Virus record (IMG/VR): IMGVR_UViG_3300045988_093513
Span: 1-64,000 of that record
DNA from: a virus
Length of the DNA stretch: 64,000 nucleotides
Strand: one strand, 5' to 3'
Positions 19,570 to 61,726 of the stretch are shown here, one piece after another. Under the pieces are notes generated by a model, which saw only the letters and a list, made by a program, of their open reading frames with translations, was not told the DNA's origin and did not search any database. The number at the start of each line of letters is the position of its first letter. Position 1 is the stretch's first letter. Made by a program: the position numbers and the translations under genes.

Positions 19570-19722
19570 GTTTATTCTCCTTTATCATTTAGAAAAAAAT
19601 ATCACAAATCTTAATACCAACAATAGTTCCGATTAATGCACAGATGAAGTTCTCAATCACCTTGCCACCCCCTTCACTATAAACATTATACCACACTTGA
19701 ACCAAATTGTCAAGCACTTTTT

Positions 19723-22650
19723 CTAAACTTTTTTGATGGCTGGGGTGAAGTCAACAATCATCGTCCCACGAAGCTTCATAAGATAAGTCCTACCAACTTC
19801 CAGTGAGCTTCCTTTATTATCAAAGATAACTAACTCTTTGACAGTATCATTTACAACACCAGTAACAAAGTGCATAGGCTTACCTTGTTTAGTCTTATGT
19901 GCTTTACGTTTAGTTACTGTTACAAGGAAAATAGTCCTATCATCGCACAAATCAGACACATAATCGTCCACAGAAGAAAAAGAATATCCGATAGATGCAA
20001 GTTCCATCTCTCCATTAGACTGGACATCTTCGTGATGTACGAACTTAAACGGTGGCTTACTCTTCCTAGAATCTTTGACCCAATCAATGTACTGTAACAA
20101 CTCCTCTCTATTGCCTTCAACTGCACCAGCTTTCACTATAGACTCAAGTACCCTACGGTTAACACTCTTATTGTCCTCTATCCACTGCTTACCATCGTGA
20201 TTGAACGTCAAAGTATCAAACGCATTTCCTACGTATTTTAACATGTCAAATCCTAGGGTTATATGATTAGACATCGGAACGTAGGTATGTTTAAAAACGT
20301 CGTTATTTAACGGTGTTTTTGAGCATTTTAACGATTTTATACTTGGTGGTTCTACCTTAATGTGCAGTTGTAAAGAGTGTGAAATGTACTTTGATACCTT
20401 CGCTCTGTCGTCTTTGTTGTACTCAAGTAGTGAAGCCATGTAATACTCTGGATAATTAGCTTTAAGATAAGCTGTTCTCCATGATGTTAACCCGTATGCA
20501 ACTGCATGCGACTTATTGAATAGGTAATTAGCCGACTTGCTTATGCTATCGGAAAGATAATCAATGACATCTTTAGGAACCCCATGCTTAAGCCCTTCTT
20601 CTTTGAACTTATTCATAGCCGGTTCCATTTCTGAAACAACTTTACGTCCGATAATCTTACGTAGAATATCCGCTTCACCAAGTGAATACCCACACAAAGC
20701 CTGCGCTATCTGCATTACCTGCTCTTGATATAAGATTACGCCATATGTTTCTTTGGTAATCTCATCATAGGCCGGATACAAACTCTTGACTGACTTACGT
20801 CCAGTTCTTCTATCCACGTAGTCCTTAGCCATACCACTATCGAGTGGGCCTGGTCTACATAATGCCATGACTGGTATTAAGTCTTCTGCACCATGAATAG
20901 TAATAGAACGGATGAAACCTTTCATCGCCGCTGACTCAATCTGAAAACAACCTTCTGTCATTCCACTATTCAACAACTTACATGTTGCATCATCTTTCTC
21001 TGGTATATTATTCCAAAGTTTCTGTGCATCTGTACCCATCATATCAGCCATTCTATGTACAATAGATAACTGCATAAGCCCAAGCATATCAAGTTTAAGG
21101 CACCCCTGTGCTTCAAGGTCGTGATAATCAGTTGCACAAACAAAGTCGTCTCCCTGTTTCTCTATCGAGCACCATTCAGTAGGGTCTCTAGGGAATACCA
21201 TAACGGCACTGGCATGCATACCATAAGACTGTAAACGTCCAAAGAAATGCTTAGCAAGCGTTCTGAGTCTCTCGTCTTTTACTCCTTCCCATGTTTGAAA
21301 ATTGGTACTAATCTTATTGACGTAACTGGAAGGTAGCCCGAGAGCTTGCCCAGCTCTTTTAACAGCCGCCTTCTCCTGCATGTAGTTCATAGTACGTACA
21401 TGATAAACATCACCATACTTCTGACGTACATACTCAATCACTTCATCACGTCTATCGCTTTCAAAGTCGACATCTATATCGCAAGGAGTTACACGCTGTT
21501 CATTACAAAAGCGCTCGAAGACGTTATGCCACCTTACGGAATCTACCTGAGTAATACCCGAGAGATAAGCTGTACAACACCCACCAACAGACCCGCGACC
21601 CAACCCAGTAAGAATACCATGCTCATTGCAATAACCCATAATATCTTTGATAATGCAGAGATAATTGAGATAATCGCATCGCCGAAGCACAGGTAACTCT
21701 CGTTCAACTCGTACCACATAATCGCTTTTATTGGGCCTGGCTCCCATGTGTAACCGTTTCCACCCTTCGTTACACCAGTCACGAATCTGTCTTTCAGGGT
21801 CTTTAGTGTTGTACTTAGGATAATTGTCACCCCCTTCTGGAATTACAACATTACACTTGTGAATGATGTTACTGGATTCTTGAATCATGGCGTCAACCTG
21901 TTCTCTGCCGAACCCATCTTCCATCATTCTCTGTGTAACTTCTTTGCCATCCATCATGTAAAAATCTTTACTACTATAGGCATCATTAGTTCCTCTTACG
22001 CTTACCCACATATCGTGATAAACAGCATCAGCAGGATTGGAATAATGACTATCATTAGTAACAAGGACATTGTAACCGTGAGACACAGCATAATCGTAAA
22101 CCCTCTTATTATACTCTCTCTGTTCTTTGAATCCATGTGGCTGTACCTCCATGTAGAAATCATCGCCAAACAAATTAGCGATAGTATCAACAACATCGGG
22201 ATATCGATTAAAGAAGCCAGCTATACATGCGGTAGTACAAATCAATCCTTCGTGGTACATCTCTAAATCTTTAATACCAATCCTAGGTTTTCGATAGAAC
22301 TGACGTGCCGCAACAGTAGACAGTTTATACAAGTTCCTAAGTCCGTTAATATCTTTAGCTAACAGTATGATATGTGCATTCTCTCCGCTCTTCATCTCTG
22401 GTTCTGGACAAAAATAACCTTCCATACCAAGTATGGGTTTGATACCCGACCGCTTACACTTGTGATAAAACGCATACAACCCAGTAGTTGTACCATGGTC
22501 TGTTAATGCTACCGCTTCATATCCAAGTTCTTTACCTCTTTGAATAATCTCGTCAATAGTACAATACCCATCTCCTATAGAATAGTCGGAATGCTGATGT
22601 AAGTTTGTAAATGTACTACTCATCTGACGCTTCCTTTCTCTGCTTCTCAA
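19723..22650 (-). CDS. dnaE: DNA polymerase III alpha subunit (DnaE-type replicase, compact 975 aa)
   Basis: N-terminal PHP domain LHQHSDYS...DHG. Conserved GLGRGSVGG palm motif. Confidence 0.75.
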   Translation of the reverse strand: MRSRERKRQMSSTFTNLHQHSDYSIGDGYCTIDEIIQRGKELGYEAVALTDHGTTTGLYAFYHKCKRSGIKPILGMEGYFCPEPEMKSGENAHIILLAKDINGLRNLYKLSTVAARQFYRKPRIGIKDLEMYHEGLICTTACIAGFFNRYPDVVDTIANLFGDDFYMEVQPHGFKEQREYNKRVYDYAVSHGYNVLVTNDSHYSNPADAVYHDMWVSVRGTNDAYSSKDFYMMDGKEVTQRMMEDGFGREQVDAMIQESSNIIHKCNVVIPEGGDNYPKYNTKDPERQIRDWCNEGWKRLHMGARPNKSDYVVRVERELPVLRRCDYLNYLCIIKDIMGYCNEHGILTGLGRGSVGGCCTAYLSGITQVDSVRWHNVFERFCNEQRVTPCDIDVDFESDRRDEVIEYVRQKYGDVYHVRTMNYMQEKAAVKRAGQALGLPSSYVNKISTNFQTWEGVKDERLRTLAKHFFGRLQSYGMHASAVMVFPRDPTEWCSIEKQGDDFVCATDYHDLEAQGCLKLDMLGLMQLSIVHRMADMMGTDAQKLWNNIPEKDDATCKLLNSGMTEGCFQIESAAMKGFIRSITIHGAEDLIPVMALCRPGPLDSGMAKDYVDRRTGRKSVKSLYPAYDEITKETYGVILYQEQVMQIAQALCGYSLGEADILRKIIGRKVVSEMEPAMNKFKEEGLKHGVPKDVIDYLSDSISKSANYLFNKSHAVAYGLTSWRTAYLKANYPEYYMASLLEYNKDDRAKVSKYISHSLQLHIKVEPPSIKSLKCSKTPLNNDVFKHTYVPMSNHITLGFDMLKYVGNAFDTLTFNHDGKQWIEDNKSVNRRVLESIVKAGAVEGNREELLQYIDWVKDSRKSKPPFKFVHHEDVQSNGEMELASIGYSFSSVDDYVSDLCDDRTIFLVTVTKRKAHKTKQGKPMHFVTGVVNDTVKELVIFDNKGSSLEVGRTYLMKLRGTMIVDFTPAIKKV

Positions 22651-23056
22651 GTGTCATCTTCTCCCACTCTTTACGTGCGGACTCTTTCGCTTCTTCCATC
22701 TTCTTGAGGTACAGGCCATAATATGTATCACTCTTCTGCTTCATGTAGTTAGATACGTAATCTTCGGAATCAAGACTCTCACGTATTCTATCATTCTCTT
22801 CCGTGTGTTCGCCAGTGTACTCTTCAACAAGTATCTCTACTGGATATGCACATAAATAAATATGGAATGGCGTTTCTACGTAGGATAAACACTCACGACC
22901 ATTAAGGTTGTTCAATACCTGGTTAGGCATAGGAGCATTTGTTTTGCTTGTCATACGTCTCATTGTATGTTTCTTACCTGCTCCATATAAACCAAGTACA
23001 TCTGCCTTATGAATATATACACCGAAACCAAGGTTCATTAATTCTTTATCCTTCAT
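22616..23056 (-). CDS. Hypothetical protein, first gene of the leftward replication operon. Start re-assigned to ATG 23056.
   Basis: ATG preceded by an AAAGGGGG SD and a consensus promoter. The track's TTG start at 23155 lies upstream of that promoter. Confidence 0.4.
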   Translation of the reverse strand: MKDKELMNLGFGVYIHKADVLGLYGAGKKHTMRRMTSKTNAPMPNQVLNNLNGRECLSYVETPFHIYLCAYPVEILVEEYTGEHTEENDRIRESLDSEDYVSNYMKQKSDTYYGLYLKKMEEAKESARKEWEKMTLEKQRKEASDE

Positions 23057-23086
23057 CCGGCTCACCCCCTTTCCAACTCTATTTGA

Positions 23087-23115
23087 ATTATACCACAGTT
23101 CCAAAAGTTTGTCAA
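23087..23115 (-). promoter_or_regulatory. Sigma-A/sigma-70 consensus promoter for the leftward replication operon
   Basis: On the minus strand: TTGACA, a 17-nt spacer ending TGTGG, then TATAAT. Followed by the SD and the ATG at 23056. Confidence 0.55.
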
Positions 23116-23217
23116 GGGGGTTTTGAAAAAATTTTTCGGCAAAAACTGTTGGCAAATTTCAATGGCCATTATCTTATATTATTGAAAGAAACTTTTAAAA
23201 ACTTTAAAATAAAAAGC

Positions 23218-23246
23218 TTGACAAGGTTTCTCTTTTGTGGTACAAT
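23218..23246 (+). promoter_or_regulatory. Consensus promoter P1 (rightward), first copy of a tandem ~69-bp duplication
   Basis: TTGACA, a 17-nt spacer ending TGTGG, then TACAAT. Confidence 0.55.
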
Positions 23247-23286
23247 AATGTCAGAAAGAAATTTCAAAAACTTCAAAAGAAAAGAC

Positions 23287-23315
23287 TTGACAAAGTTTAT
23301 CTTTTGTGGTATAAT
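23287..23315 (+). promoter_or_regulatory. Consensus promoter P2 (rightward), second copy of the tandem duplication
   Basis: TTGACA, a 17-nt spacer ending TGTGG, then TATAAT. The flanks (GAAA..AAATTTCAAAAACTTCAAAAGAAAAGAC) match P1's. Confidence 0.6.
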
Positions 23316-23319
23316 AATG

Positions 23320-23900
23320 TTGTAGAAAAGTGGACAACTAAATATATGAGTAACCGTTACATTGCGAATACATCTCAGACAATGTAACACGGTGTTGTAA
23401 ATACAATTGTTGACCGAAACTCAATCATGTAGCAAGACAAGGTTACAGGAAATCAGGGTACTTTATGTATTGGTATCTCAGCGAAGGCCAGAAGTAATCC
23501 ACACTTCATGGGGGTCAGGCGCAAGTAATGTCCGTTAAAGGGAGAAACTTTATGGTGGGTTAAAATCCACCCCCAAAATATTTAGGCAGGAGGCTCAAGT
23601 CGAAAGACGGCGTTGGACAACCACTTACCAAGGGTTGAGTGAGGTTAAGTTCTTTAAGAACTAGGTGTGTTGTCACCTTGAACGACCGAGGCGATGGGGT
23701 TCATTCCATTATCTCTGTTAAGACGCTACGTACTGACCGTGAAGTATACAACTTTTACGGTTTAGTATGCGGCGTCTACCTCCTCACTCCCTCAGCTCCG
23801 AGGTTCATTCCCGCCCCGACAGGGCGAATGAACCAAGGAGCCATGAGAGGGAAAGATAAAATATCTATACTTAACATTAAACTTTAAATAAAATATATCT
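23320..23900 (+). ncRNA. Candidate noncoding or leader transcript with several stable hairpins
   Basis: About 580 nt downstream of the two consensus promoters with no convincing ORF. Hairpins include GTTCTTtAAGAAC, gtcGAAAgac, and GGTTCATTC(c)CGCCCcgacaGGGCGAATGAACC at 23805-23837. The only long ORF (GTG start, 82 aa) looks non-proteinaceous. Confidence 0.3.
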
Positions 23901-23906
23901 TACCTC

Positions 23907-23935
23907 TTGACAAATATTGAATAATATGATATACT
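23907..23935 (+). promoter_or_regulatory. Promoter P3 immediately upstream of gene 23979
   Basis: TTGACA, a 17-nt spacer with TGA (extended -10), then TATACT. Confidence 0.45.
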
Positions 23936-23978
23936 ATACATATATTAGAGATAGTGAGAATGAAAGGAGAGATATTAA

Positions 23979-24500
23979 ATGACTGAATCTAAGTTTAAAG
24001 TAGGTGATAGAGTATATGCTCCATTCCGTGGTTACGGTACTGTAATAAGGGCAAAGGATGATTACGCTGTCTACCCAGTGGTAGTAAAGTGGGATAAAGG
24101 TAGTGCTGAGGACATTAGCACGTTTACTTCAGATGGTCGTTTATCTATATATATTAACGACGATTATACTTATACAATTACAGATGAAGAGCACACACTT
24201 AACAAAGAGGAGAAAGATTCTAAATCAGACAAGGAGGTTAAAGCAATGGCTGATAACAAAGTAAAGATTGAGTATTCACCGATTAACCCTTCTCATTATA
24301 GGGTAGATGGTATCCCAGAGGCTATTGATATTATGGAACATCTCATGACACAGGAGCAGTTTAAAGGATTCCTTTGGGGTAATATTATTAAATATGCGTA
24401 TCGATATGGACGCAAGGGAGATGAACACGATACAGCGGGTAAGATTGAGTGGTACGCAAATAGACTTAAGGAAGCGTGTGGAGAAAAGGGGAAGTCGTAA
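23979..24500 (+). CDS. Phage protein with a conserved C-terminal domain (DUF3310-like)
   Basis: Strong RBS AAAGGAGAG. C-terminal PSHYR...IEAIDI...GNIIKYAYRYGRKG...KIEWYANRL resembles a widespread phage domain. Confidence 0.4.
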   Translation: MTESKFKVGDRVYAPFRGYGTVIRAKDDYAVYPVVVKWDKGSAEDISTFTSDGRLSIYINDDYTYTITDEEHTLNKEEKDSKSDKEVKAMADNKVKIEYSPINPSHYRVDGIPEAIDIMEHLMTQEQFKGFLWGNIIKYAYRYGRKGDEHDTAGKIEWYANRLKEACGEKGKS

Positions 24501-24815
24501 ATGAAACTAAAAGAGTATTTATATTGCTTAGTTGCCGACCAGCCAGTGGCTATTGAAGATGCGGAAGAAGACACTAGCATAAGTTGGCTTGATAGGGATA
24601 CTACATTTGCGGATAAAACGTTAATCCCTAAAGAGATTCTTGATTTAGAAGTGTATAAGTTTTGCGGCAATACCTATTACCCTGGTAACTTCTGTTCAGA
24701 AGAAGATGAATGCTTCTATGACCCTTATGAAGATTGGTATGGATGTGTTAAGTTTTATGTTAAGGGTTTTCAGAAAGTAAAAGACAAACTAGGATTTAAA
24801 GGAATGGTTAAGTAA
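24501..24815 (+). CDS. Hypothetical protein (104 aa, Cys-containing)
   Basis: ORF abutting the previous gene (ATG overlaps its stop). Confidence 0.4.
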   Translation: MKLKEYLYCLVADQPVAIEDAEEDTSISWLDRDTTFADKTLIPKEILDLEVYKFCGNTYYPGNFCSEEDECFYDPYEDWYGCVKFYVKGFQKVKDKLGFKGMVK

Positions 24816-24826
24816 ATAAAAAAATA

Positions 24827-24854
24827 GGGAGGCGAAAGCCTCCCCTTTTTTATT
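24827..24854. terminator. Bidirectional rho-independent terminator
   Basis: GGGAGGC-GAAA-GCCTCCC hairpin (GNRA loop) followed by CTTTTTTATT, with an A-run on the other side. It sits between convergent genes ending at 24815 (+) and 24858 (-). Confidence 0.7.
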
Positions 24855-24857
24855 GGT

Positions 24858-27800
24858 TTAATTCAGTAAGTTACCAAGTGCTCTTACGTTAGAACGTACA
24901 ATATCAGCTTCTTCATTATCCGATTTAGTTACCATCTTTTCCGCCTGTTCTGCTGTAACCTTTGGCTTAATATATTTATCTACTGCTTTGTGCGCCTGTT
25001 CTGGTGTCTTGCCATAGGATTGCAGTTTTCTAAGATTAGCTTCTGTCGGATTGTTAACGTAGGCAATCATTACGTCTTTAGCACTGTTAGAGTAATCTTG
25101 GTTAATATCTGTTACAAATCTGTTGAGGTCTGTATTAAGTTTATTCTCGATTGGGTTAAAGCCCATAATGTTTTTAGCTCTATCTACATCACTCATAGAC
25201 TGGTACTCTGTCTTAGGCATTAACTTACTGTAAGAATAATACTGTCCTCTTGCCGCCTGTAACCATCTTGATGCCGCTGGTACTGCTTTCAACCAAGCAA
25301 ACATCAGTTGGTCTGTTGTATACTTATCATACATGATGGCATCGAAGCTTGCACCAGCAGCAGAACTAAAGTCGATAGCTGTACCTAACGACGGGCCACC
25401 AAGGTTACGTAGGTCTGTCGGGTCTTTCATGATATCGGAAAGACCTACCTTCTTACTGATATCTACACCGAACACCGGAGCTGCAATACCGTAGCACAGT
25501 GCTTCACCGATATCACGTGAGAACTGGTCGTTTCTTCTTCCAGCTGCTTTCAGAATAAAAGCCTTTATCCAATCTTCTGGGTTTGTACCAGTGATTGCTT
25601 GGCTCATACCAGAAATCATAGTCATCATCGGGATACCGGAAATAACACCAGAGAACAACATCATTGTTCCAAGGAATCTCTTGAGTTCTGTACTCTTCTT
25701 ATTCTTAAGCATCCAGTACATAAAGTGGAATGTCTGGAATCCGTAAGATGCAAACTGGAATACACACTTAGCAAGCTGTCCGCCTTTAGCCAAGAGTAGT
25801 GGGTCTGTTGCTCTGTTGAAGTTAAAGTTCGTGCGATATACGAAATCTCTAATTGTAGCCATACGCTGTGCGTTATATTCTTCTTCGCCAATCTCAGACT
25901 TGCTTTCTCTGAACGCCTTATACTTAGGACTGGTATCAATGAGATTCTGTGCTACAAGTGCAGCAAACAATCTACATGCAAGGTCTGCACCTCTGAATCC
26001 ACTCATACTTAAATCAAGAATCTTCTTACCTGTCTTTGGCATCTTGTCGATAATACTTTCGCCTTCGTATGCACTACCAGCGTTACCCAACTGAGTAGCC
26101 ATATCGTTCATAACCGATTCACCGTCTTTGCCATTCAGTGTATCGAGCATTTCGTCGAACACTTGCAGTTCGATAGCTGTCTTATCTCCCCGTTTTATAG
26201 CTTCGTCAAATGCCTTTTCACCTTCTTGTTCAAGTAAGCTCTTCCCTTTCTTAGTAAGGTACAGGTCTGCCATTACCTGCTGAATTTCTTTGCCGTATTG
26301 GCTTACGTCAAACTCGCCTTTCAAAATATCAGACGGCTTATGTGCCTTAGTTAAGATACCTGGCATCTTCTTCATTGCATAAGCAAACGCACTTTCTCCC
26401 CCGAGTGCATACACGTTAGCTAACTGTGCATACTGTGCGAGTGCCGTACTCACGTTGAACATACCAAGTTTTAAGTATACGTTGACAGCGATACTGTTAT
26501 GAAGTAATGCGGGAAGCCACATGTCTGGGAGGTATACACCACATGCATTCAAGATATTACGCATACCAGGAACCGCATAGATAGCATCAACCACCATAAC
26601 ACTGAGTCTTCTCATGAATGCATCAGCCGGCTTATCTCTACCATTCATATTATCTACGAGTTCGCACATAATATTGTATGGAGAATAGTAAGAGTCTCTC
26701 CTAGTTCTATCATAGTTTCTTCCTGTGTACTTGTAGATAGTCTGCGTCATATCTCTATAGAATGGAGTGAGTGCTTCTACACTATTCACGGTGTGTAAAT
26801 AATGTTTGAGAGAACCGATAACGTCATGGGAATACAGTCCGCTATTAGATGTACGTTCACGGGCGTAGTTAGCCGCTAAATACTGTGCACCATTTGCTTT
26901 TAAAGCGTCGCTAACTTGTCTGAATGTCTGCACTTTATCTTTGCCAACACGAATCATCCTGGCTGTCTGAATCAAACGTGGCTTATACTTACCAAATTCT
27001 TCCTCGTCTTCTTTATCCATATTGCGAAGAGCGTTAACAACTCTTTCGATACTATCGTCGCCCTGCCATTCTTCACTATCATTAAATTTCTTGCGAATAA
27101 ATTTTGCAAGTCTACCAGAGATATCTGTTTCGGCTTCTTTCTTACCTCTGCTAACATCCTTCTCTGTGAGAGTACCAATAGATGTATCAACGTTACCGAC
27201 AATATCTGTACGACCGCCGCCCTGTTCTTGCAGCCATTCATCACGTGTCTTTTCTACATATCGTTCGTTCTGTCCGATAGGATGTTCGTTTCTGTATTTA
27301 GACCTATCACGTTTGCTTTCAAAAGAACCAATGCTATATGTAATAACGTGATAATACTTATCGCCTCTCTGGACGATAAAGCCTTCGTCTTTAGATTTCT
27401 CATTCTTGTTGGCCTGCTCCTCTGTAATCTCGTGCCATACTTCTTTCTGTAGAATATATCTAGCATAGTATCTCGGTGCGTATGCATGCAAGAACCCAGT
27501 ATGTACACGATTGATGATATCATCATTCTGCAAAGCTCTCTTCTGTTCTCTTTCGTATGCGTTCATCAGTAACGCACGATATAGTGCTTGGCTTGCGATA
27601 AACCCATCGATGACAGGTTGAGCGTATCCTCTCTGTTTCATGAGTTTACGTCTGAATTGTTCGCATTCTCTTAATACCTGCTTTTGTAATCTAGCTCTCA
27701 TGCGAGCCTGACCTTCTACGCCAGTGCCATCTTCGTTCGATGGATATGCAATGAACAGGTTCTTGAACTTACCGTTCTGCATGCGTTCATCTTTACATGC

Positions 27801-30800
27801 ATAGAATACCAGTGTACCAGTATCTTCTCTGTACCAGAAGGCTTGATTCTTGTAGAACTTTTTCTTTTTCTTGTCGTAATATTCTTTCATCTTTTCAATC
27901 TTGTCGTTCATTTTAGCCATGGCTGTAGCCTTATCTGGCTGATTATGCAGAACAAAGAATATGTCATCATCGTATACTTTAAGCATAGCATTCTTACCAG
28001 AAGAAGAGCGATTCTTACATCTTTCGTCCTGCCCAGCTTCGTATGGAAGGTCGAACAGTTCGACAAGGTCTCTACCTCTATCACTGTTGACATTGATTTC
28101 AGTATTGAAGTACTGTCTCAATGCCTTGGTCTGTAACTCGTTTCCGTCAATGGTGAGGAGCTGTTGCAACTGCTTAACGTATGCGTCACTCTTTGCATTT
28201 AATTCCTGCTGATAAGCGATAGAACGCTGCGATTCATCGAACAGTCTGTCTGCGTCTTCTTTGTTAACAAGTTCTTCCAACCATCTCATACCTGGAATCA
28301 ATGCGAGCTTAATGTCCTTGGCATGGTTAAGTCCACTGGTGGATGTCTGAGAGAATGTCTTGTTGCGTTTGTTTGCGATAGCGTACAGTAATTGCATGAA
28401 CTTACCACGTGGAGAACCAGCGTCATGAGATACATCTCGTGCATTGGTAATAACACCCTTGCTAGTACCAACGTCAACCTTCTTCTTTTCCTTTTTCTTT
28501 TTAACTGTTGCGTGCTGATTAGTCTGCGTTTTAAAGTTGAGTACACCAAAGTTAGAATTCGATGTAAGTTCACTTATAGATTCTGCCGCCTTCTTTAACT
28601 GTTCTCTCATTCTCTTCTTGTCTTTATTTCTGATTTCATGTTTTGGGTCTTGTACATCTAACTCACGAAGCAGTTCTGCAGATTTATAAAGCCATGTAGT
28701 CATGAAGGCTGAAGAATCGCTTCCTGCGATATTTCTTCTTTCATTATCGCCAGTGGTATTCGGTGGCGTTGTATCCAAGTGACTATACGTTTCTGTAATT
28801 AATTGCTTCGTCGAGTAGAATAATGGTATTTCTTTATTGACTGTTTTAGCACCGAATATAATACTTGGTAATATCATACTCATGACTAAGGTTTCATAGT
28901 TGCTTGCATCAACGTTTTTGTAGAACATACCAAGTGTGGTCGCCCCGACTTTGCTGACGAATCTAGCGTCACCAGTCTTAGTACCATCATATCCGATTAA
29001 GTTTGCTATAGTCCACATAGCCGCTGTATCTTCGACAAGTTTATTTACATCTACAAGTTCTGTAATTGCCAGTATTTGTCCCGCTAACAAACTATCGTTA
29101 TTATTTAAAATCTTGAGAGACTTTTCAAGCTCTTTTTTAAGTGCTCGACCGATAGCTTCTTCGGCATCGTCCTTTAAATCCTCTGGAAGTTCCTGTGCGT
29201 TTCTATCTACGGCAAGACCTCCAAACTTCTCATCTTTCCAGTTTGCGTCACTAGGAAGTGCAAGTCTATACTTACCTTTTGCTACGTCAATCGTTACTGC
29301 TTCATCGGTGAATGCATGCATTAACTCGTGGTATACTGTAGAACGATGGTCGTCTGCTACTATCCTACCCATAGACTCTTTATATCCACTATCTTTATTC
29401 AGCCGGCTTGCAATATATGGAGCTACACCCAACGTGTTGCTTGCTCTATTTACAAACAGTGTGTGTGCAAATTGAACATTTACATTTTTATCCAGATGTC
29501 CTTTGAGGTTAGCGCCCAAGAACGCCGTGTTTTCTTTACTCATTCTAATAACATCTTCTTTTGGCGTCCCTAAGAGTTCTGAACTCAAATCTCTGATTGC
29601 ATCTACGGTTAACGGTTTCAGTTCGTGTAACTGTTTGCCATAGATTATATCGATTGCATTCGGTAAATCTACATTCTTTACACTGTAAGACTGGTTAGAA
29701 TTAAAGAGCTCTGGTCTTGTAGTTACACTTTTAAGAAGTTTATCAAGGATGTCTACAGTTTTGTTTGCAGAATCAAGACCTTTTAATCTTTTCGATGCTA
29801 TTGTGAATAGCGAACAAAGGTTAGCAATATCAGTGTACGATAACTTATCTTTCTGTGCAAGTTCGTAGCTGAATGTATGTAACGATGTGATTAAACCATC
29901 ACTGCCCATCGCACTATCGTTATGCGCCATCATCAGATAGTTATAATTTGGGTCCGCCATTAAGTCTTCAATGGTGTATGGAATATCCTTACCGTACTCT
30001 TCTTTTAAGTCCGACTTATCTACAGAACCCATGTACTGCAATAAAGTAGCGATAGGGTTTTCATATGGTTCGAGCTTGTTCTTTGCTTTCCACTTTGTAG
30101 AATCTATATCATGAATATCAACTCTACCTTTGATATTCTTAATCGGAGAGCTATCGGTGATATCAAGTTTCTTGACAACGTAATACCCATCCTGATAGTC
30201 CATGATGTTTAAAGCACCAAGGATTGCTTCCCTAAGTTTGGTGTACGCCCACGAATTAATGTACCCGCTTTCTTTTGTCTCTTCGTCGCTATAGTCAAAC
30301 TTCGGCTTCTTGTTTACAACAACGAATCTCTTATCTTTTTTATCTACTCGAAGAGAGATTGCGTTAACATCGTCACGGAATTCATTTGGCCCTTCGGAAA
30401 ATATTGGTTTGTTTTGAGGGTTGTGAGAAGTTCCAAACTTTTTTATCAAAGATGTGTTTCTAGCTCTCCCTGCAATTTCCATCTGCTCGAGATGAACAAA
30501 TCTATTAACGTCCGCCTTAATCTGTTTCATAACTCGCTCACGCACTGTTGCTTCCGATTCGTTTTTCTCTTTTGCTACCTTTTGAATGTATCCATTAAGG
30601 CCGTTATTGATAAGAGCTTCTTTAGGAAGCGTATTGTTTATAGCTAATACTGCCTTTACAATAACGTTGTTAGAAATACCAGATTCGTCGATGTTAAAAT
30701 AGTCATGTAACAATGTAGTGATGGCACCAACTACAGTACCAGACGACTGCAGAACACCGTGGTCCGTGGAATAATTAGTGTCACCAGGTTTAGAACCTTC

Positions 30801-33800
30801 TTTCTTGGCGAAGAATTCTGTAACGTTACCTTTAACTAAGTTAGGTTCTACTTTTTCTTTTCCGAGAGCTGCGTTTGCTGCGCTCTCTTCACGGACGGAA
30901 GTAATTACCCAGTTATCTGCCCGACAAAATTCTTTGAGTTTAGCGAGTCTATCCTCTTCTTTGTTAGCTCCTTTATATTCTTTATACTGTTTGTCCGTTA
31001 ACAGGTACTTATTTCCTTTGTAGGATACGACACGTTCTTCGCTTCTCTCTGCTGCGAACTTTCCTTTGTTTGTTCCGTATGCGTAGTTGTATACTACTTT
31101 ACTAAGCTTTACATCTCGATGGCCAGGGGCTGCCTTATTTGGGTCTACCTTATGTTCTCTCTTCATCTTATCGGCGATACTTTCAATCTTAGCTTCGAGT
31201 GCTTTCGATAACAGTATCGCATCTACTTTTGTGACACCGTGTTGCACAGCAAACCCTAACTTCAGAGCTACACTACTATCCGTCGGATAGAAATGCCCAG
31301 CACCCATCATGCCAGCAGAGAGTACACCACGCTTTGCCTTATTAATAGCGTTCTTCCACCTATTAATAAAGTTGTCTTTTGTTTTGTTGTATTTATCCTC
31401 GGTCTTAACTTTTTCTATATACCCTTTGCTACACTCTTCCCACAGGTCTTCAATCCACTTATCTGTAAATTTATTCAACCCGCTGATTGTGTCTTCGTCG
31501 TATCCGAGCACTTTCATAATCTGTTTATATTTTTCTACGGTTACCTGTCTACGTTTCCCGTTTTCTGTTACGATAAGAGACATATCGCTGATATTAATAT
31601 CGTCAATGCTGGACTTGTTATCGGCTATATACTTACCAACAAACTTACTTTCTTCAAATTCGCTTTCTGGCATCATCATTGCCGTGGTTTTAGTGTTAAG
31701 CCACGGGAATTTAGTGGTACGTCTATTTACAAGTTTATTAACTTCCTGACCATCGACATGCATCTTGCTGATAATGTTATGGCTATAACTTAAGCCAAAT
31801 AGTTTTCTACCTCTTTGGTCTTTTTGAACGTCTTCGCAGATTTGTTTAAGCCCTTGTTCAAAGTTTCTCATGCTAACATACCAATGGTCTCTATCAAGAC
31901 CTTTAGTTTCAGCGGTAGGGAATAAGCCGTTAATTTTTTTGATTAAATCAATAGCGTATTCTCGAACATTGTCTGCGTCAGAACTATCTTTATGTTGTGC
32001 AAATTCAGATTCACCAATGTCGCCATAGTTATCTCTTACTGTTCTTACGATAAATGCAATCATAAGATTTGCTTTTTCAGTAGAAGACAGGAATGCGCCA
32101 TCCTGGTTCTGCCGCTTCAACATATTTTTATAAAGCCCCGTATCCAGTTCATTACATAACTGAATCTCGAATGATGTAATGGCAAGATAACGAGCTGCTT
32201 GGGCTGCTACCGCATAATCAAAACTTCTTTCGAGTGTAAGGTTGTTGTTGTCTATATAGTCGTGGTGAATTGATGTTACTGCATTTTTTTCGTTCTCCAC
32301 GCCATCGCCAGTTTTATCTTGACTCTTATCTCCGATATCGTCATCGTCTTCGCTATGCTGTTCTTTACTGCCTTTGGTTTTCTTCTGCCTATTCGTTTTA
32401 GCCTCTTGCTTTTTCACGTCTTCGTTATCTACCTGCATATATTTATCCTTAGCTGCTTCAGCTAAGGCAATAGCTTCTGCTATTATATTGGCTTTTGAAA
32501 CCGCAACAGCTCTACCATTCTTAGTTAAGAGTTCATTTCCGGCGACATTGTTTATAAATGCATCTCGTGTGAGACCAATATAATCGGAAAGTTCAATATC
32601 TGGTTGCGATACCTTATCGCTTTTTTTAGAATTACCATACGCTGCTCGCAGAATAAATGTCTTGCCATATTCGTTTGCCTTCAGCTCAACATCTTTCGGT
32701 ACTTTACTTAATGATTCTACGATATCTTCTTTAATATTACCAAGCTTCTGCATCATTCGATATGCGTTCCAAGCTTCCTCGCCCTTATCTGTATTCACTA
32801 CAGAAAGGAAAGCATCCGAGAAGGCGTAAATAAACTCACGAGTGTAGTCTTCAAAGTCTTTATCAGTACCAGTTTTCTTAAAATTATTCAGTAATTCTCT
32901 CAGGTGTTCTGCGTATGGCCCACGAACCATTTCGTTATTAACTGCGGCGATAATTTCCATACGACCAGTGGATTTAATGCCTTGTTGTGGCTGAGCATAT
33001 TGCTCTAATAACCATGGAAGTGCATCTGCAAACTTTTCCATTCCGTATTCGTGGAGTTCTTTCGGCATACTATATGAAGACATGTCCTGAACCAACCGGT
33101 ACGCTGTCTGCTTGTCCTCATCCGCACCAACAAACAGGTCGCCAGTTACGGAGTAAAGCTGTCTAGGTGTAAGCTTTGCCAGAATAATACTATTTCCACC
33201 ACGGTCTACTATGTATTGCTGATATTTGCTATTCAAAACGTACCAGAACCATGTGTTTAAGCTAGCGACACCCTTAGAATTCTCAGGGTCTTGCTCCATC
33301 TTAACACGTACTCCATCATACGTTGCGATAGCTGTATGAATAGCGCCAGGTAAGATATCGAGCAGGTCTGCGTAGGCACTTCTAAAGTCGGTCGGGTTGT
33401 CAAAATCAACAACACCATTACGGTTTGCACCGTTAGCTACCGTCATTTTATCACGAAGCAGGTTGATACCATAAGACGCAAGAGCACCAAAGGCAGCCAT
33501 GTATTGCATCTTGGCATGGAACTCTTCTTCTTTACTCTTAAATTTATGAGCTCCACCAAGAAAACTAATATACTGTTTCGCCTCTGGTAATATGGTCACT
33601 AGATTAGCGAAAGACATCCTGTTGATAGTACCGTAGTGTTTACCAACAACGTCTTTTAATTCTTTATATAACTTCCCTTTACGATACTCATTGTAGCGTT
33701 GACTTGCTTTAACGTCTACGGAGTCCTGAACAACTCCTGTCTGCACAAACTTTAACGTGGGCAGGTCTTTATCTTTTGGTAACTCCTGTGCATTATTCGC

Positions 33801-36800
33801 TTCACCGTTACGGCTAGCAATAATGTCGTTTATTCTATTGAAAGTGGCGTTCAGACTATCGAGTTCGTCCAAGAGGTCGTCTTCGCTAATATCATCTTCG
33901 TCCATAAGGTCGTCTTCGATATGAGTTTCATCCTCACTACCTTTGTCTGGTGTACCACCATCTTCTTTGAACAGCGGGCTATCTTCTTCCTGTAATTTAT
34001 GTGCTATTTTTTTCTTGTCAGTTTGTTTTGTACTGGTTTCGGAACTTTCGGTTTCGCTGCTCGTGCCATTGTTGTCGAACCGCCCCTGTTGATGTGTGTT
34101 CCTCCCAGCTTCTGTCCTGGTTTCTGTTTTGCTGTCCGTACTACCTTTGGCATTCTTGGGTGGCTGAGTGTTTTCATTTTTCCCTCCTGTTGAAATCTTT
34201 GTAATCGAATCGTTAGATTGCACTGGCTGTTGCTGTGTATTGCCAGTTGTATCTTTCGGTGTATTAGTATTGTCCTGCTTCTTAGGGGTGACAGCGACAT
34301 TGTTATTGTTTTTGTTGGTAGCACTATTTGTATTGTCTTTTGCGTTTACACCAATGACGCTATTATAAACATCATCTGGAATGCTCTTTAGAATAGTAAC
34401 GGCTGCTGGTTTTGCGGCGTCATCATCGGCTCTTCTGAAAACTTCCAAGGCAGGTTTTGGAATATTGAGAGCATTTCTCTTATCAAGCTTGTCGATAATG
34501 TTCCGTGCTCTATCTAATCCGTTTGGTGTGTTAATATTTGCGATAACATTAACCCTTGAATTTCTATCGTTATTTACACTGTCTTCTACTGGATTGGTAG
34601 TTTTACCTACGTTCTCCGGCTCTTTCATTTCCGCCGTTAAATAACGCTGATTTGCAGCATTTTGAACGTTTTGCACTTGCGGCTGTACTACCTGCTGTGC
34701 CACCTGTGGTCTTGCCAGACCACCAAGTGGAGACGTGTTAAGTCTATCAGTGTGTACTGGTGCTTGTGTCTGTTCTACTCTCTGCTGTGTAACTGCTTCT
34801 TGTTTTGTCATGATAGGCTTCTGTACTACTGGGGTCTGCTGTTCTGTCTGTACTTTCTGTGCTGCCTGTTCCTGCGGCTTCTGTAATTTCTGCTGAGTTT
34901 CTTCTACAACCGGTTGTTCTACCAGTTCTTCCACCGGTACATCAGTAACATCTACAACAGGCTGCTGTTCCTGTGTTCTTTCCTGTCTATTCTTCGCTTC
35001 CATATAAGCGTTAGGGTCAACGGCTCTAAGTACATCTCTGATAGCATTAGTATCATCATTGTTCGCTCTATCAAGAAGTTGCTGATTAACTTTCAAGAAT
35101 CTGCTCTTGGTTTTATCAGCCAATTCTTCTGCCTTACCGTTCGGGGCAAGAGAGCGAATAATTTCCTGTGCTCTCTGGATAGCTTCTGTATCAGCGTCTT
35201 TCTTTCCAACACTTTTAATAACATTTTTAATATCATTCTTTACTGCGTCTAATTCCTGTTTTGCCTGTTCAGCCTGAGCTTTCTTTTCGTTATTACGTTC
35301 TCTTACGGCATTTACTACGTTCTTTCTATCAAGGTTAGACAGAATATAGTAAGCGGCGTTAGTGTCACCGTTTACTGCTTTATTTAACAATTCAGGAGAA
35401 AGCTTTGCATTCCCATCTGGAATATTTTCATTGATTGCATTAATGTCTGCATTGTTATATGCTCTAGTGAGAATATCTGGCAGGTCTGCCATTTTAGCTC
35501 TAGTATCATCAACGAACTGAGACATTGCATCGTTATGTTCAATAGGCTGCGGCTCTTTTTCTACTGGAGTTGTAATTGCATTTTGCAGTACAGGTGCTTC
35601 CTGTGTGACGGTACTTGGCATAACTGGCGCTGTATTACCCTGCTGTGGCATTACAGTATCACCAGTCAGAGACATAGTATTGTCATCAACTACGTTCGGC
35701 ATAAGAGGCTGTTCTACTGGTACTTCGTGTCCAATATAGTCGGACAGGTCTGTACTATCTGCCATAGCATTAGCAATACCAGTTGTCTGCATTAGGTTGT
35801 TATAGTCGTTCTTAGCTTCGGCTGTCGGGCCAAGAGAATCAATATTGTTATACAGGTAACGTCCTGCATTACGCACACCGGCTACACCTACACCAGAGAC
35901 AAGTGTTGGCAAAAATGCGGAGTTGAACGAGTTGATTTCATCGTCAGTAAAGTTGCCTCGGTTGCCATTAGCAATATCACGGAAGAAACTGCCAGCGTCA
36001 GCACGGTCATCGTCAAACTTATTAGACATTGCGTCCTGTACACGCTGCTGCCATGCTTCCTGAAAGCCTTCGCCAAACGCATTCGTCAGTCTGTTGCCGA
36101 TAAAGTCGATTGGTTTACTAGCTGTTGACAATCCATACGCAGCTCGCCCAAGCATAGTATCAGCACGTGCAGTGTCGCCTAAAAGTGCGCTAGCTACTTT
36201 ACCGCCATTAGAAGCTAATGCATCGGCAATACCAGCCTTCGCAAGACCTTTTCCGGCAAGAGAGAATAAACCACCAGTAGCACCAGTAGCTACATCAATC
36301 GCAGTGTCCATGAAAGAAGAACCAATAAGTTCTGCATTCTTATATGGGTCACCTGTAAAGCTATCCCATGCCGACTGGTCAATAGTACCATCGTATACGG
36401 TGCCAATAGGTCTCTGACCAGCTGCAATCTGTGCTTCCATGTTGTCTCTCTTGGCGTCCATATAGTTTTGACCGAAGTTAGCACCAATTTCAAGACCAGC
36501 GCTACCTAAGATACCAAGAGCAGGAAGAGCCATTCCACCGCCAGCTGCTAATGCTGCACCTGCTAACATACCCGGTGCAGAAGAACCAAGCATAGTACCA
36601 GCGTCACTGGAAAGACCATGCGGGTCAATAAGGTATCCGAGAGACCAACGAGACTTGTCTGGGTTATTATCATAGTCATTAGCCCAGTCAGAGTATCTTG
36701 CCGCCTGTCTTGTAAGGTCGCCACCAACACCAGCTAACCATGGGCTATCTGCTACTACCCCAGCAGCAGTTAAAGCTCCGCCAAGCGTAGACTCGGCAGA

Positions 36801-60829: not shown

Positions 60830-61161
60830 CTGTCGCTGCTGTTCGAGAGCCTGACGCTGAGCTGCGAGTTCCTGTGTTTTCCTAGTGTCTTAACCTTCGA
60901 GTAAAGTCGTTAATTTTACCCCGTCATTCCACAGGAGAATGACTGCTGCATATTTCTATGCAGAAGAGACTATTTCTTCACCTTCTCCTTTCAGAGGTCA
61001 GGTGTCTGGCACTTCCGTCCACTTGGACGTACTCCCTGCAACGGGATAGTCGTTACGGGTTCCCAGCATAGCTGGGCTTCCCACGAGATTGCCCTCGTCT
61101 TTACGTTAGGGTGTTCCTCGTTTTCACCAGATTTAAATCAAGGATTTCTCCAAGAAGTGAC

Positions 61162-61569
61162 CTATTTTGTTAAGTCAGCCTGTCGCATATAACCATTACG
61201 CATTTCATCCATAGAAACCTGTACGTCCTGTCCATCTACACGGACAGTCTGCATTTCCGGCTGCGGCTGTGGTACTTCCTGCGGCTGTTCTTGGACGGGT
61301 TCTGGTTCATCATCATAGTCGCCTGTCGGTTCTCCGAAAAAGGCGTCGGCAAAAGTGACGTCCCCGTTCTCGTCAATACCAAATGCAGGTTCATCAGCGT
61401 CATTGTTCTGCGGTGCAGTCTGCGCATCCGGTGTTTCCACTGGCGCAGTTGTTGCAGGAACAGGTTCCTGAGCTGGTTCTACCATTGGCATTCCGTTCTG
61501 CATTTCTTCCATAAATTCCTCCTTTTTGCACTCCGTAAAGGTTGGTGCAGTAAAATATATATACGCCAA
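61162..61569 (-). CDS. Acidic scaffolding-like protein (TTG start). Possibly exon 1 of a split scaffold gene.
   Basis: A 135-aa highly acidic, Pro/Gln/Glu-rich protein. It sits between the portal-side genes and the capsid gene. Confidence 0.4.
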   Translation of the reverse strand: MAYIYFTAPTFTECKKEEFMEEMQNGMPMVEPAQEPVPATTAPVETPDAQTAPQNNDADEPAFGIDENGDVTFADAFFGEPTGDYDDEPEPVQEQPQEVPQPQPEMQTVRVDGQDVQVSMDEMRNGYMRQADLTK

Positions 61570-61726
61570 TAACCATGCAAAATTTGTTCGTTAAATAACG
61601 AGGTTTTACACGGTTTTGACGAAATTAACTGGCACGGATTGCTAGAATCGAACTAGCGAATTGCTGGGTCAAAGCCAGCCGCCTTCACCACTTGGCTAAA
61701 CCCGTATCACTATTTGTATAAGAAAA

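What the first reader, a model, noticed from the sequence alone, without database searches (positions are those of the whole stretch)
23057..23978. Divergent promoter hub with tandem duplicated consensus promoters and a ~600-nt ORF-poor transcript
Three promoters share an unusual TGTGG-TA(T/C)AAT extended -10. One points left and is followed by the RBS and ATG of the replication operon. Two point right as a perfect tandem ~69-bp duplication, each with TTGACA-17-TA(T/C)AAT. Yet the first rightward gene (23979) has its own promoter at 23907-23935. The intervening ~580 nt lack a convincing ORF and are hairpin-rich. This suggests an abundantly transcribed noncoding RNA or leader, an sRNA, or a replication origin or packaging site activated by transcription.
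Basis: seen in the sequence. Interest (0 to 1): 0.6.

Follow-up and report, generated by a model that had tools for sequence, protein, structure and literature searches.

The report
New large structured phage RNA gene
The gene-free stretch downstream of the duplicated strong promoters encodes a conserved, elaborately folded RNA of about 540 nucleotides that matches no catalogued RNA family; in sister phages it is fused to a tRNA gene, as the enigmatic giant phage RNAs ROOL and GOLLD often are.

Summary
The promoters are real. Four perfect TTGACA-17-TGTGGTAYAAT sites occur in 64 kb, against 0.16 expected. One points left into a RemA-like/PolIIIα operon. Two point right with a 69-bp period, but the two copies are 85% identical, not perfect.

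The 'ORF-poor' stretch (about 23322-23860, + strand) is a structured non-coding RNA gene. It sits at the same syntenic spot in about 25 related gut-metagenome phage contigs, which fall into clades at 95, 88, 71 and 62% identity, plus a probable distant 680-750-nt relative. Helices keep their pairing through compensatory changes: 13 of 27, 10 of 23 and 18 of 36 pairs in three domain models, against 0-6 in shifted controls. Invariant G-U pairs fix the strand. Substitutions show no codon periodicity, and no ORF is conserved.

No Rfam family matches, even at E≤10. Two clades carry tRNA-Cys directly 5' of the RNA. Promoter copy number varies from 1 to 3 across clades, and tandem pairs occur in three separate clades. 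The distant clade has its own terminator.

Best reading: a new family of abundant, trans-acting, large structured phage RNA, analogous to ROOL and GOLLD but not a member of either. Its function is unknown. A cis-acting leader or an origin-primer role is less likely.

The parts
23087..23115 (-). Leftward consensus promoter (TTGACA-17-TATAAT with a TGTGG -16/extended -10 element). It drives the operon of the RemA-like 146-aa gene, PolIIIα and the other replication genes.
   Evidence: 12 of 12 matches, TG present
22619..23069 (-). First gene of the leftward operon (ATG at 23056, 146 aa) with its RBS GGGGGTGA (23062-23069). The N-terminal domain is weakly RemA-like (PF04025).
   Evidence: A distant homologue, P0012, scores 31.3 bits against the Pfam cut-off of 26; the window protein scores only 14.2 bits.
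23190..23320 (+). Tandem duplication of the promoter unit: 62-nt copies at 23190-23251 and 23259-23320, period 69, 85% identical. Each copy holds an A-rich upstream tract, a -35 and an extended -10.
   Evidence: Copy number is 1, 2 or 3 in relatives.
23218..23246 (+). Rightward promoter P1 (TTGACA-17-TACAAT, TGTGG)
23287..23315 (+). Rightward promoter P2 (TTGACA-17-TATAAT, TGTGG). The predicted transcription start is near 23322.
   Evidence: the start site is inferred from the position of the -10
23322..23860 (+). Gene for a structured non-coding RNA of about 540 nt, a new family. The 5' end is inferred from P2. The 3' end is uncertain: conservation runs through the terminal hairpin, and a YUAACAU motif follows at about 23872-23879.
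23348..23479 (+). 5' domain. Helix 23350-23355/23441-23446 encloses hairpin 23356-23365/23378-23388 and helix 23390-23393/23413-23416, followed by the invariant single strand ACCGAAACUCAA. Hairpin 23456-23462/23472-23478 comes next.
   Evidence: model R1, alignment A6: 27 pairs, 99.3% of cells paired, 13 pairs with compensatory change, covariation score 0.463 against at most 0.145 in shifted controls
23525..23651 (+). Central domain. It holds hairpin UCC-GUUAAAG-GGA (23531-23543), hairpin 23554-23571, GNRA hairpin GUC-GAAA-GAC (23599-23608), and a hairpin around 23617-23641 whose exact register is ambiguous.
   Evidence: model R3, alignment A13: 23 pairs, 10 compensatory against 0-5 in shifted controls. 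The GNRA loop is kept while its stem changes in clades D and E.
23684..23781 (+). 3' domain: hairpin 23684-23719 and a long hairpin of about 23 bp at 23721-23777.
   Evidence: model R2, alignment A10: 36 pairs, 18 compensatory against 2-6 in shifted controls, covariation score 0.358 against at most 0.064
23784..23852 (+). Terminal hairpin. The outer stem GCUCC/GGAGC lies at 23795-23799/23837-23841; the inner part is variable. No U-tract follows, so it is not a classical intrinsic terminator.
23907..23935 (+). Separate promoter (TTGACA-17-TATACT, TG-extended) for the DUF3310 gene at 23979
23979..24845 (+). Rest of the short rightward unit: DUF3310 protein (23979-24500), a 104-aa ORF (24501-24815) and a bidirectional intrinsic terminator (24827-24845).
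19685..19713 (-). Fourth perfect copy of the same promoter type, between PolIIIα and the Rad52-like gene

Best explanation
Bases about 23322-23860 (+ strand) are a gene for a highly structured non-coding RNA of about 540 nt, belonging to a previously uncatalogued family.

It is transcribed by the host sigma-A/sigma-70 RNA polymerase from one to three tandem, perfect-consensus, TG-extended promoters; this phage has two. It is therefore probably made early and in large amounts (inferred).

In sister clades the same RNA lies directly 3' of a tRNA-Cys gene behind one such promoter. There it would be released from a tRNA-containing precursor by host tRNA-processing nucleases (inferred).

The RNA most likely works in trans through its tertiary fold. 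That fold has at least 12 helices, a conserved GNRA tetraloop hairpin, and several invariant single-stranded blocks that look like tertiary-contact or partner-binding sites. This makes it a functional analogue of the large phage RNAs ROOL and GOLLD.

Shown here: conservation, fold, strand, non-coding nature, promoters and tRNA linkage. Inferred: abundance, processing and trans action. What it binds or does is unknown.
For: 1. Conservation at a fixed syntenic position, between the RemA-like/PolIIIα operon and a variable rightward module. This holds in about 25 contigs of 60-72 kb, in clades A (95-98% identical to the window RNA), B (88-90%), C (71%) and D (62%). A probable distant clade E carries a 680-750-nt RNA at the same spot.

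2. Covariation.
- Whole-RNA alignment A3: 14 compensatory pairs against 1-4 in shifted controls, and 0 of 500 shuffles reach that.
- Domain models: 13 of 27, 10 of 23 and 18 of 36 pairs are compensatory, with covariation scores 3 to 6 times those of shifted controls.
- Every inter-anchor segment folds into the same hairpin with different sequence in clades A to D.
- The two clade-E sequences show 22 compensatory pairs against 1 in shifted controls.

3. Strand. Many invariant G-U pairs exist only on the + strand. The + strand also folds better. The promoters and the tRNA-Cys point the same way.

4. Not coding. Substitutions fall 54/54/53 by codon phase, single-base indels are present, and no conserved ORF has a start codon and RBS.

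5. Promoters. Four perfect consensus sites against 0.16 expected. Copy number upstream of the RNA varies from 1 to 3, and tandem pairs occur in three separate clades, A, D2 and E. That pattern fits selection on expression level.

6. tRNA-Cys(GCA) lies immediately 5' of the RNA in clades C and D1.

7. Independence from the downstream genes. Those genes have their own promoter and differ between clades. In clade E an intrinsic terminator ends the RNA unit.

8. No Rfam family matches the RNA.
Against: - There are no expression data of any kind. Abundance, transcript ends and stability are inferred from sequence alone.
- In clades A to D no intrinsic terminator separates the RNA from the downstream genes. 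The strong promoters must therefore read through, and the RNA could also act as a 5' leader.
- The family is phylogenetically narrow: one phage group, whose flanking protein family has only 13 clusters in 5.8 billion proteins. Much of the covariation rests on three or four independent lineages.
- The alignments made with the covariance models are fitted to the tested structures.
- Long-range helices and one central hairpin register remain ambiguous.
- In this window the RNA is not next to a tRNA.
- Homology of clade E rests on shared motifs, synteny and marginal model scores (E = 0.07 and 0.2).
Confidence: 0.72

Rival explanations
1. The structured region is a long cis-acting 5' leader (riboregulator, stabiliser or processing platform). 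It would control the short rightward early operon of DUF3310 and the 104-aa ORF, rather than act as an independent trans-acting RNA.
For: There is no intrinsic terminator between the RNA and the gene at 23979 in clades A to D. Transcripts from P1 and P2 must therefore continue into the genes until the terminator at 24827-24845.
Against: The downstream gene has its own near-consensus promoter at 23907-23935. DUF3310 follows the RNA only in clades A and B; clades C, D and E have other genes there. In clade E the RNA unit ends at an intrinsic terminator, followed by a new promoter. In clades C and D1 the RNA is fused to a tRNA, which is atypical for a leader. A length of 540 nt with at least 12 conserved helices far exceeds known riboswitches and leaders, and no Rfam cis-regulatory family matches.
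Confidence: 0.12
2. The locus is a transcription-activated replication origin. The tandem strong promoters would make a primer or pre-primer RNA, as with ColE1 RNA II or the T7 primary origin with its tandem promoters followed by an AT-rich segment. That RNA would initiate DNA synthesis next to the replication genes.
For: The locus abuts the replication module: PolIIIα, primase-helicase and a Rad52-like protein. It has tandem strong promoters, and an AT-rich stretch follows the RNA at 23855-23906. The RNA length resembles that of ColE1 RNA II (own knowledge).
Against: Selection clearly acts on the RNA fold, including G-U pairs, and on single-stranded blocks throughout 540 nt. A primer does not require this, although it does not exclude it. 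No direct repeats other than the promoter units, and so no iteron-like array, were found in 22900-24100; DnaA boxes were not specifically searched for. A tRNA gene sits between promoter and RNA in two clades. The local GC-skew turn at about 23100 coincides with the switch in gene orientation and needs no origin.
Confidence: 0.08
3. The region encodes one or more small proteins, for example the 82-codon GTG frame at 23639-23887, or it is a DNA-level site such as a packaging signal.
For: A stop-free frame of about 80 codons is open in clades A and B. A packaging site cannot be tested with these tools.
Against: The frame has no ATG and no RBS. Substitutions show no codon periodicity (54/54/53). 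Single-base and 2-base indels fall inside the frame. The amino-acid sequence is not conserved in clades C and D. Compensatory base-pair changes and + strand G-U pairs point to selection at the RNA level, not the DNA level.
Confidence: 0.03

Closest known systems
ROOL RNA (Rfam RF03087; Weinberg et al. 2017, PMC5737381; cryo-EM structure, PMC12286853)
   Same: Large: ROOL averages 581 nt and this RNA is about 540 nt. Both have many helices, are encoded by phages or prophages, are often next to tRNA genes and possibly co-transcribed with them, have no associated protein gene, and have unknown function. ROOL is reported to be as abundant as 16S rRNA in one strain; here perfect-consensus tandem promoters predict high expression.
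   Different: No match to the ROOL covariance model even at E≤10, tested on the exact RNA of clades A and C and on the clade-E intergenic gap (L069). The distribution is much narrower: one phage group rather than three phyla. In this window the RNA is not near a tRNA. Oligomeric nanocage formation is untested.
GOLLD RNA (Rfam RF01998; PMC12286853)
   Same: A phage or prophage RNA next to tRNAs, sometimes covalently linked to them. Both show a better-conserved part alongside a more variable part; here the central and 3' blocks are near-invariant, while clade E differs greatly elsewhere.
   Different: GOLLD is usually longer than 800 nt. There is no match to its model, and the secondary structure is unrelated.
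lncRNAs of Staphylococcus phage K (Kayvirus) (PMC9241854)
   Same: Phage-encoded long non-coding RNAs that the authors describe as resembling GOLLD and ROOL by their position relative to tRNA genes and their abundant transcription.
   Different: No sequence relationship could be shown. A blastn search of the locus against 50,697 phage records found nothing.
ColE1 RNA II and the T7 primary origin (transcription-primed origins; own knowledge)
   Same: Strong promoters, tandem in T7, make an RNA of several hundred nucleotides next to replication functions. An AT-rich segment lies downstream.
   Different: There is no evidence here for an RNA-DNA hybrid site or an antisense regulator. The RNA shows conservation typical of a tertiary fold, and it is tRNA-linked in relatives.

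Membership tests
ROOL RNA (RF03087) | Match to the family covariance model (sequence plus secondary structure) | tested here: not met
   cmscan of Rfam 15 at the gathering threshold on the whole window. Also run at E≤10 with lax filters on the 553-1101-nt region, on clade C and on the clade-E intergenic gap. No ROOL hit in any.
ROOL RNA (RF03087) | Phage or prophage location, often adjacent to tRNA genes | tested here: inconclusive
   Phage location is met. tRNA-Cys lies directly 5' of the RNA in clades C and D1, but not in the window, where the nearest tRNA is 38 kb away.
ROOL and GOLLD RNAs | Homo-oligomeric RNA-only nanocage | not testable with these tools
   Requires in-vitro transcription followed by cryo-EM or SEC-MALS.
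GOLLD RNA (RF01998) | Match to the family covariance model, which has a conserved 3' half | tested here: not met
   no GOLLD hit
Other large bacterial ncRNAs in Rfam (OLE, HEARO/omega RNA, raiA, RNase P, tmRNA, 6S, group I and II introns, T-box) | Match to the respective covariance model | tested here: not met
   Only sub-threshold eukaryotic miRNA-type hits on the terminal hairpin. ARAGORN finds no tmRNA or tRNA within the RNA.
Structured non-coding RNA gene (generic) | Conserved base-pairing maintained by compensatory substitutions, in excess of controls | tested here: met
Structured non-coding RNA gene (generic) | Absence of coding signal | tested here: met
   (no codon periodicity, no conserved ORF); indels
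Structured non-coding RNA gene (generic) | A discrete transcript is detected | not testable with these tools
   No transcriptome data are available. Promoters are predicted, and a terminator is found only in clade E.
Sigma-70/sigma-A extended -10 promoter | TTGACA, a 17-nt spacer, TGn and TATAAT | tested here: met
   This shows consensus only; activity was not tested.

The most novel reading that the evidence does not exclude
This is a third, independent class of giant phage RNA linked to tRNA genes, after GOLLD and ROOL. Like them, it would fold into an RNA-only higher-order assembly, or it would be a ribozyme, made in bulk early in infection of a gut Firmicute. The recurrent linkage to tRNA-Cys would then reflect a shared biology of tRNA-associated phage RNAs, such as tRNA protection or sequestration, or manipulation of ribosomes or defence systems.
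Probability: 0.2. Interest if true: 0.85.

Novelty: new member of a known kind. Interest (0 to 1): 0.62.

Why it matters
Bacterial and phage non-coding RNAs longer than 500 nt with ornate conserved folds are very rare. Nearly all whose function is known do sophisticated biochemistry: rRNA, RNase P and self-splicing introns.

ROOL and GOLLD were recently shown to self-assemble into RNA nanocages, but their function is still unknown (PMC12286853). An additional, unrelated family would give a third comparison point for asking what these RNAs do for phages. It shares the same ecological signature: phage-encoded, tRNA-linked and strongly promoted.

This family has practical advantages. It is compact. 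It has clear domain boundaries. It has natural variants with 1 to 3 promoters and with or without the tRNA. It sits in a defined early-gene context.

It also shows that raw-sequence reading of promoter architecture can flag unannotated RNA genes.

Tried and rejected
- Rfam at the gathering threshold and at E≤10 on the locus and on relatives found nothing beyond spurious miRNA-like hits on the terminal hairpin.
- blastn ('distant' mode) of the locus against 50,697 phage records gave no match.
- Three motif scans of IMG/VR returned only the same five contigs, plus one chance hit inside a coding gene (L014).
- A genome-contig scan with an 18-mer gave only chance hits. No prophage copy was found, so there is no direct host assignment.
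- L004 and L006, distant DUF3310 relatives, are densely coding upstream and lack the RNA.
- A second profile search for more distant homologues of the flanking 146-aa protein returned the same 13 clusters.
- A PDB sequence search with that protein's profile found nothing.
- A supplement search of the viral structured-RNA catalogue paper (PMC10690425) found no files held, so I cannot say whether the motif is among its unnamed candidates.
- A search for an antisense target found no sense or antisense match of 14 nt or more to the RNA elsewhere in the window.
- Long-range closing helices: three alifold runs gave three different solutions, and clade D contradicts two of them (GGACA:UGUCC and AGGGAG:CUCCCU). 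I report these as unresolved.
- My first promoter pattern had an 18-nt spacer by mistake and found nothing. It was corrected.

Full report
**Context**

The window is part of a dsDNA phage genome with its own replication module. That module includes a PolIIIα-type polymerase at 19723-22650(-), a primase-helicase, a Rad52-like protein, ribonucleotide reductase and a helicase. The window also holds tail genes and a 4034-aa ORF. The closest public phage records are unannotated human-faecal contigs whose polymerase is about 32% identical.

The finding lies at a point where transcription diverges. Genes to the left, as far back as about 8.5 kb, are on the - strand. To the right lies a short + strand island that ends at a bidirectional terminator at 24827-24845.

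**Checking the observation**

The three promoters described are present at the stated places.
- 23087-23115(-) and 23287-23315(+) match TTGACA-17-TATAAT at 12 of 12 positions.
- 23218-23246(+) has TACAAT as its -10.
- All three have TGTGG immediately upstream of the -10. This is the TRTG/-16 plus TG-extended -10 arrangement typical of strong Gram-positive promoters (own knowledge).
- 23907-23935(+) matches at 11 of 12 positions.

A whole-window scan for TTGACA-N14-TGN-TAYAAT finds four perfect sites and one with a single mismatch, against 0.16 expected. The fourth perfect site is at 19685-19713(-). My first attempt used a wrong spacer length and found nothing.

The leftward promoter is followed by GGGGGTGA and an ATG at 23056. 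The two rightward promoters lie in direct repeats with a 69-bp period. The two 62-nt units are 85% identical, not perfect.

The region 23320-23900 has only short, unconvincing ORFs. Its GC content is 43-48%, between flanks of about 30%. It folds with z = -4.8 on the + strand and -3.8 on the - strand.

**Related sequences**

I first used the two flanking proteins as handles, then conserved DNA motifs, and finally looked up contigs that encode homologues of the 146-aa left-hand protein. Together these recovered the same intergenic element in about 25 contigs of 60-72 kb. The sources were IMG/VR, ENA and Logan assemblies, and one contig is labelled human gut metagenome.

The RNA sequences fall into the following clades by identity to the window RNA.
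- Clade A: 95-98%.
- Clade B: 88-90%.
- Clade C: 71%.
- Clades D1 and D2: 62%.

A fifth group, clade E (L068 and L069, 70% identical to each other), carries a 680-750-nt element at the same syntenic place. It shares only short motifs with clades A to D:
- ACUGAAACUC in L068 (ACUGAAACGC in L069);
- a CGG-GUUAUAG-CCG hairpin;
- GGCUGGAGGUCU, then a GNRA hairpin, then GCG.

The central-domain model finds both clade-E loci at the expected place and strand, but only with marginal scores (17.9 and 15.9 bits; E = 0.07 and 0.2). I treat clade E as a probable, not proven, homologue.

The flanking 146-aa protein family has only 13 clusters in the 5.8-billion-protein collection. A genome-collection scan found no prophage copy. 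The element therefore appears confined to one phage group.

**It is a structured RNA on the + strand**

On the MAFFT alignment of 16 distinct sequences from clades A to C, the RNAalifold structure has 132 pairs, and 97.4% of cells are paired. Fourteen pairs carry compensatory changes, against 1-4 when partners are shifted by 1-3 columns, and 0 of 500 shuffles reach that number.

Adding clade D shows that MAFFT misplaces the variable stems. When the RNA is cut at invariant anchors, every segment folds into the same hairpin in clades A, B, C, D1 and D2, with different sequence each time. Examples:
- GUC-GAAA-GAC becomes GGUA-GAAA-UACC.
- UCC-GUUAAAG-GGA becomes CGG-GUUAAAG-CCG.
- GGUGGGU/AUCCACC becomes GGUGUAC/GUACACC.
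- The roughly 23-bp 3' hairpin is almost entirely rewritten.

Three covariance models gave structure-aware alignments.

| Domain | Model and calls | Pairs | Cells paired | Compensatory pairs | Shifted controls | Covariation score (shifted controls) |
|---|---|---|---|---|---|---|
| 5' | R1, | 27 | 99.3% | 13 | 0-5 | 0.463 (at most 0.145) |
| Central | R3, | 23 | 93.8% | 10 | 0-5 | 0.254 (at most 0.083) |
| 3' | R2, | 36 | 92.5% | 18 | 2-6 | 0.358 (at most 0.064) |

Two caveats apply. These alignments are fitted to the structures being tested, and the lineages are few. Even so, the signal is large and agrees with the unfitted analyses.

The two clade-E sequences show 22 compensatory pairs against 1 in shifted controls.

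Many invariant G-U pairs would be C-A mismatches on the opposite strand. Together with the promoter direction and the tRNA orientation, this assigns the RNA to the + strand.

Long-range closing helices and the register of one central hairpin remain unresolved.

**It is not coding**

Variable columns are spread 54/54/53 over the three codon phases. Single-base and two-base indels occur among clades. The only long stop-free frame lacks an ATG and an RBS, and it loses all amino-acid similarity in clades C and D.

**Transcription unit**

The number of consensus promoter units upstream of the RNA varies:
- one in most members of clades A and B;
- two in the window;
- three in L001, L003 and L035;
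- two in clade D2;
- two in clade E;
- one in clade D1; in clade C one consensus promoter precedes the tRNA-Cys, and a second pattern match lies about 70 nt further upstream.

Tandem promoter units thus occur in three separate clades. This argues for selection on dosage.

In clade C (L010, L015, L019, L020) and clade D1 (L064-L067), a tRNA-Cys(GCA) gene sits between the promoter and the RNA. Its CCA end lies 6-9 nt before the conserved RNA 5' region. There the RNA must be cut out of a tRNA precursor.

In clades A to D no intrinsic terminator follows the RNA. In clade E a 17-bp stem followed by a T-run ends the unit, just before the next promoter.

The genes downstream are not constant. DUF3310 follows the RNA only in clades A and B. 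In every clade examined a fresh promoter precedes the first downstream gene.

No sense or antisense match of 14 nt or more to the RNA exists elsewhere in the window.

**Most likely mechanism**

Taken together, the locus is an RNA gene and not merely a leader. Host RNA polymerase should fire the perfect-consensus, TG-extended promoters with A-rich upstream tracts as soon as the DNA enters the cell. That would give large amounts of a roughly 540-nt RNA; transcripts from P1 would be 69 nt longer.

The combination of covarying stems with long invariant single-stranded or junction blocks is the signature of an RNA with a defined tertiary fold or a specific partner. Examples of such blocks are ACCGAAACUCAA, CAGGGUACUUU, GGAGGCUCAA, CCAAGGGUUGAGUGAGG and ACUCCCUCAGCUC, together with a GNRA tetraloop conserved on a changing stem.

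I therefore commit to a trans-acting, stable, structured RNA as the best explanation, at about 0.72. Of that, the claim 'structured ncRNA gene' stands at about 0.9, and 'acts in trans rather than in cis' at about 0.6-0.7. Its molecular activity is unknown.

**Rivals**

- A cis-acting leader, about 0.12. This rival is supported only by the lack of a terminator in clades A to D.
- A transcription-primed origin, about 0.08. This is supported by the neighbourhood of replication genes, the tandem promoters and the AT-rich tail. It is not needed to explain any observation.
- A small protein or a packaging site, about 0.03.

**Comparison with known families**

Rfam 15 (4227 models) has no match at the gathering threshold. 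Nothing relevant appears at E≤10 on the exact RNA of clades A and C or on the clade-E intergenic gap. On the tested criterion the RNA is therefore not a member of ROOL, GOLLD, OLE, HEARO, raiA, RNase P, tmRNA, 6S, intron or T-box families.

In what it resembles, ROOL and GOLLD are closest. Both are large, ornate, phage or prophage RNAs that are often near or linked to tRNAs, are abundantly expressed and have unknown function (PMC5737381, PMC12286853). Phage K lncRNAs were likened to them on the same grounds (PMC9241854).

I could not check whether this motif is among the unnamed candidates of the IMG/VR structured-RNA survey (PMC10690425), because no supplement is held.

**Verdict**

The locus is a new family within a known kind, the large structured phage ncRNAs. 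It is narrow in distribution but well supported by comparative evidence.

Interest is 0.62. It would be higher if the RNA proves to oligomerise or catalyse.

Noticed in passing
window 60946-61181 (-) and 61630-61705 (-): A group I intron (Rfam 84.5 bits, E = 5e-20) lies about 450 nt from a tRNA-Gln(TTG) gene. The gene interrupted by the intron was not identified.
   Followed up: no
window 19685-19713 (-): A fourth perfect TTGACA-17-TGTGGTATAAT promoter lies between the PolIIIα gene and the Rad52-like gene. The replication operon therefore has an internal strong promoter of the same type.
   Followed up: partly
window 22619-23056 (-): The 146-aa first gene of the leftward operon is a divergent RemA-like (PF04025) protein. 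The clade-E homologue P0012 scores 31.3 bits against the cut-off of 26; the window protein scores 14.2 bits. It is always adjacent to the RNA and divergent from it. The A-rich AGAAAG/AAAAG tracts upstream of each -35 could be its binding sites, but that is speculation.
   Followed up: partly
L064 4100-4215 (-), L068 3640-3790 (-), L069 760-900 (-); absent from the window: A second conserved non-coding element occurs in clades D1 and E. It has repeated GUGAGUAAC...GUUAGUCAC hairpins and an invariant GGUGUGAGGGCAUGGYCSCGUAGUCCAGUACUC. It lies downstream of the large RNA and upstream of the first rightward gene. It could be another RNA motif or an operator array.
   Followed up: partly
L068 5429-8735; L071 527-4158; L072 3437-6447; L075 2721-5731; L078 701-3711: In several relatives the PolIIIα gene is split into two ORFs, in most cases with an HNH_3 endonuclease ORF between them (no intervening ORF was called in L068). 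This suggests an intron or a homing-endonuclease insertion. The window's polymerase is a single 975-aa ORF.
   Followed up: no
window 24858-36962 (-): A single 4034-aa ORF with no family assignment was examined here. It converges on the short rightward unit at a bidirectional terminator (24827-24845).
   Followed up: no
L010 3714-3788 (-), L019 6674-6748 (+), L064 4796-4869 (-): The tRNA-Cys(GCA) genes of clades C and D1 look homologous by eye (identity not computed). Yet they sit in RNA lineages that are not each other's closest relatives. This implies either repeated loss of the tRNA or its transfer by recombination.
   Followed up: partly
window 23872-23879; equivalent positions in clades B to E: A short motif YUAACAU recurs 20-35 nt after the terminal hairpin in all clades (CUUAACAU in the window, UCUAACAU in clades B to E). 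It may mark the true 3' end or a processing site.
   Followed up: no
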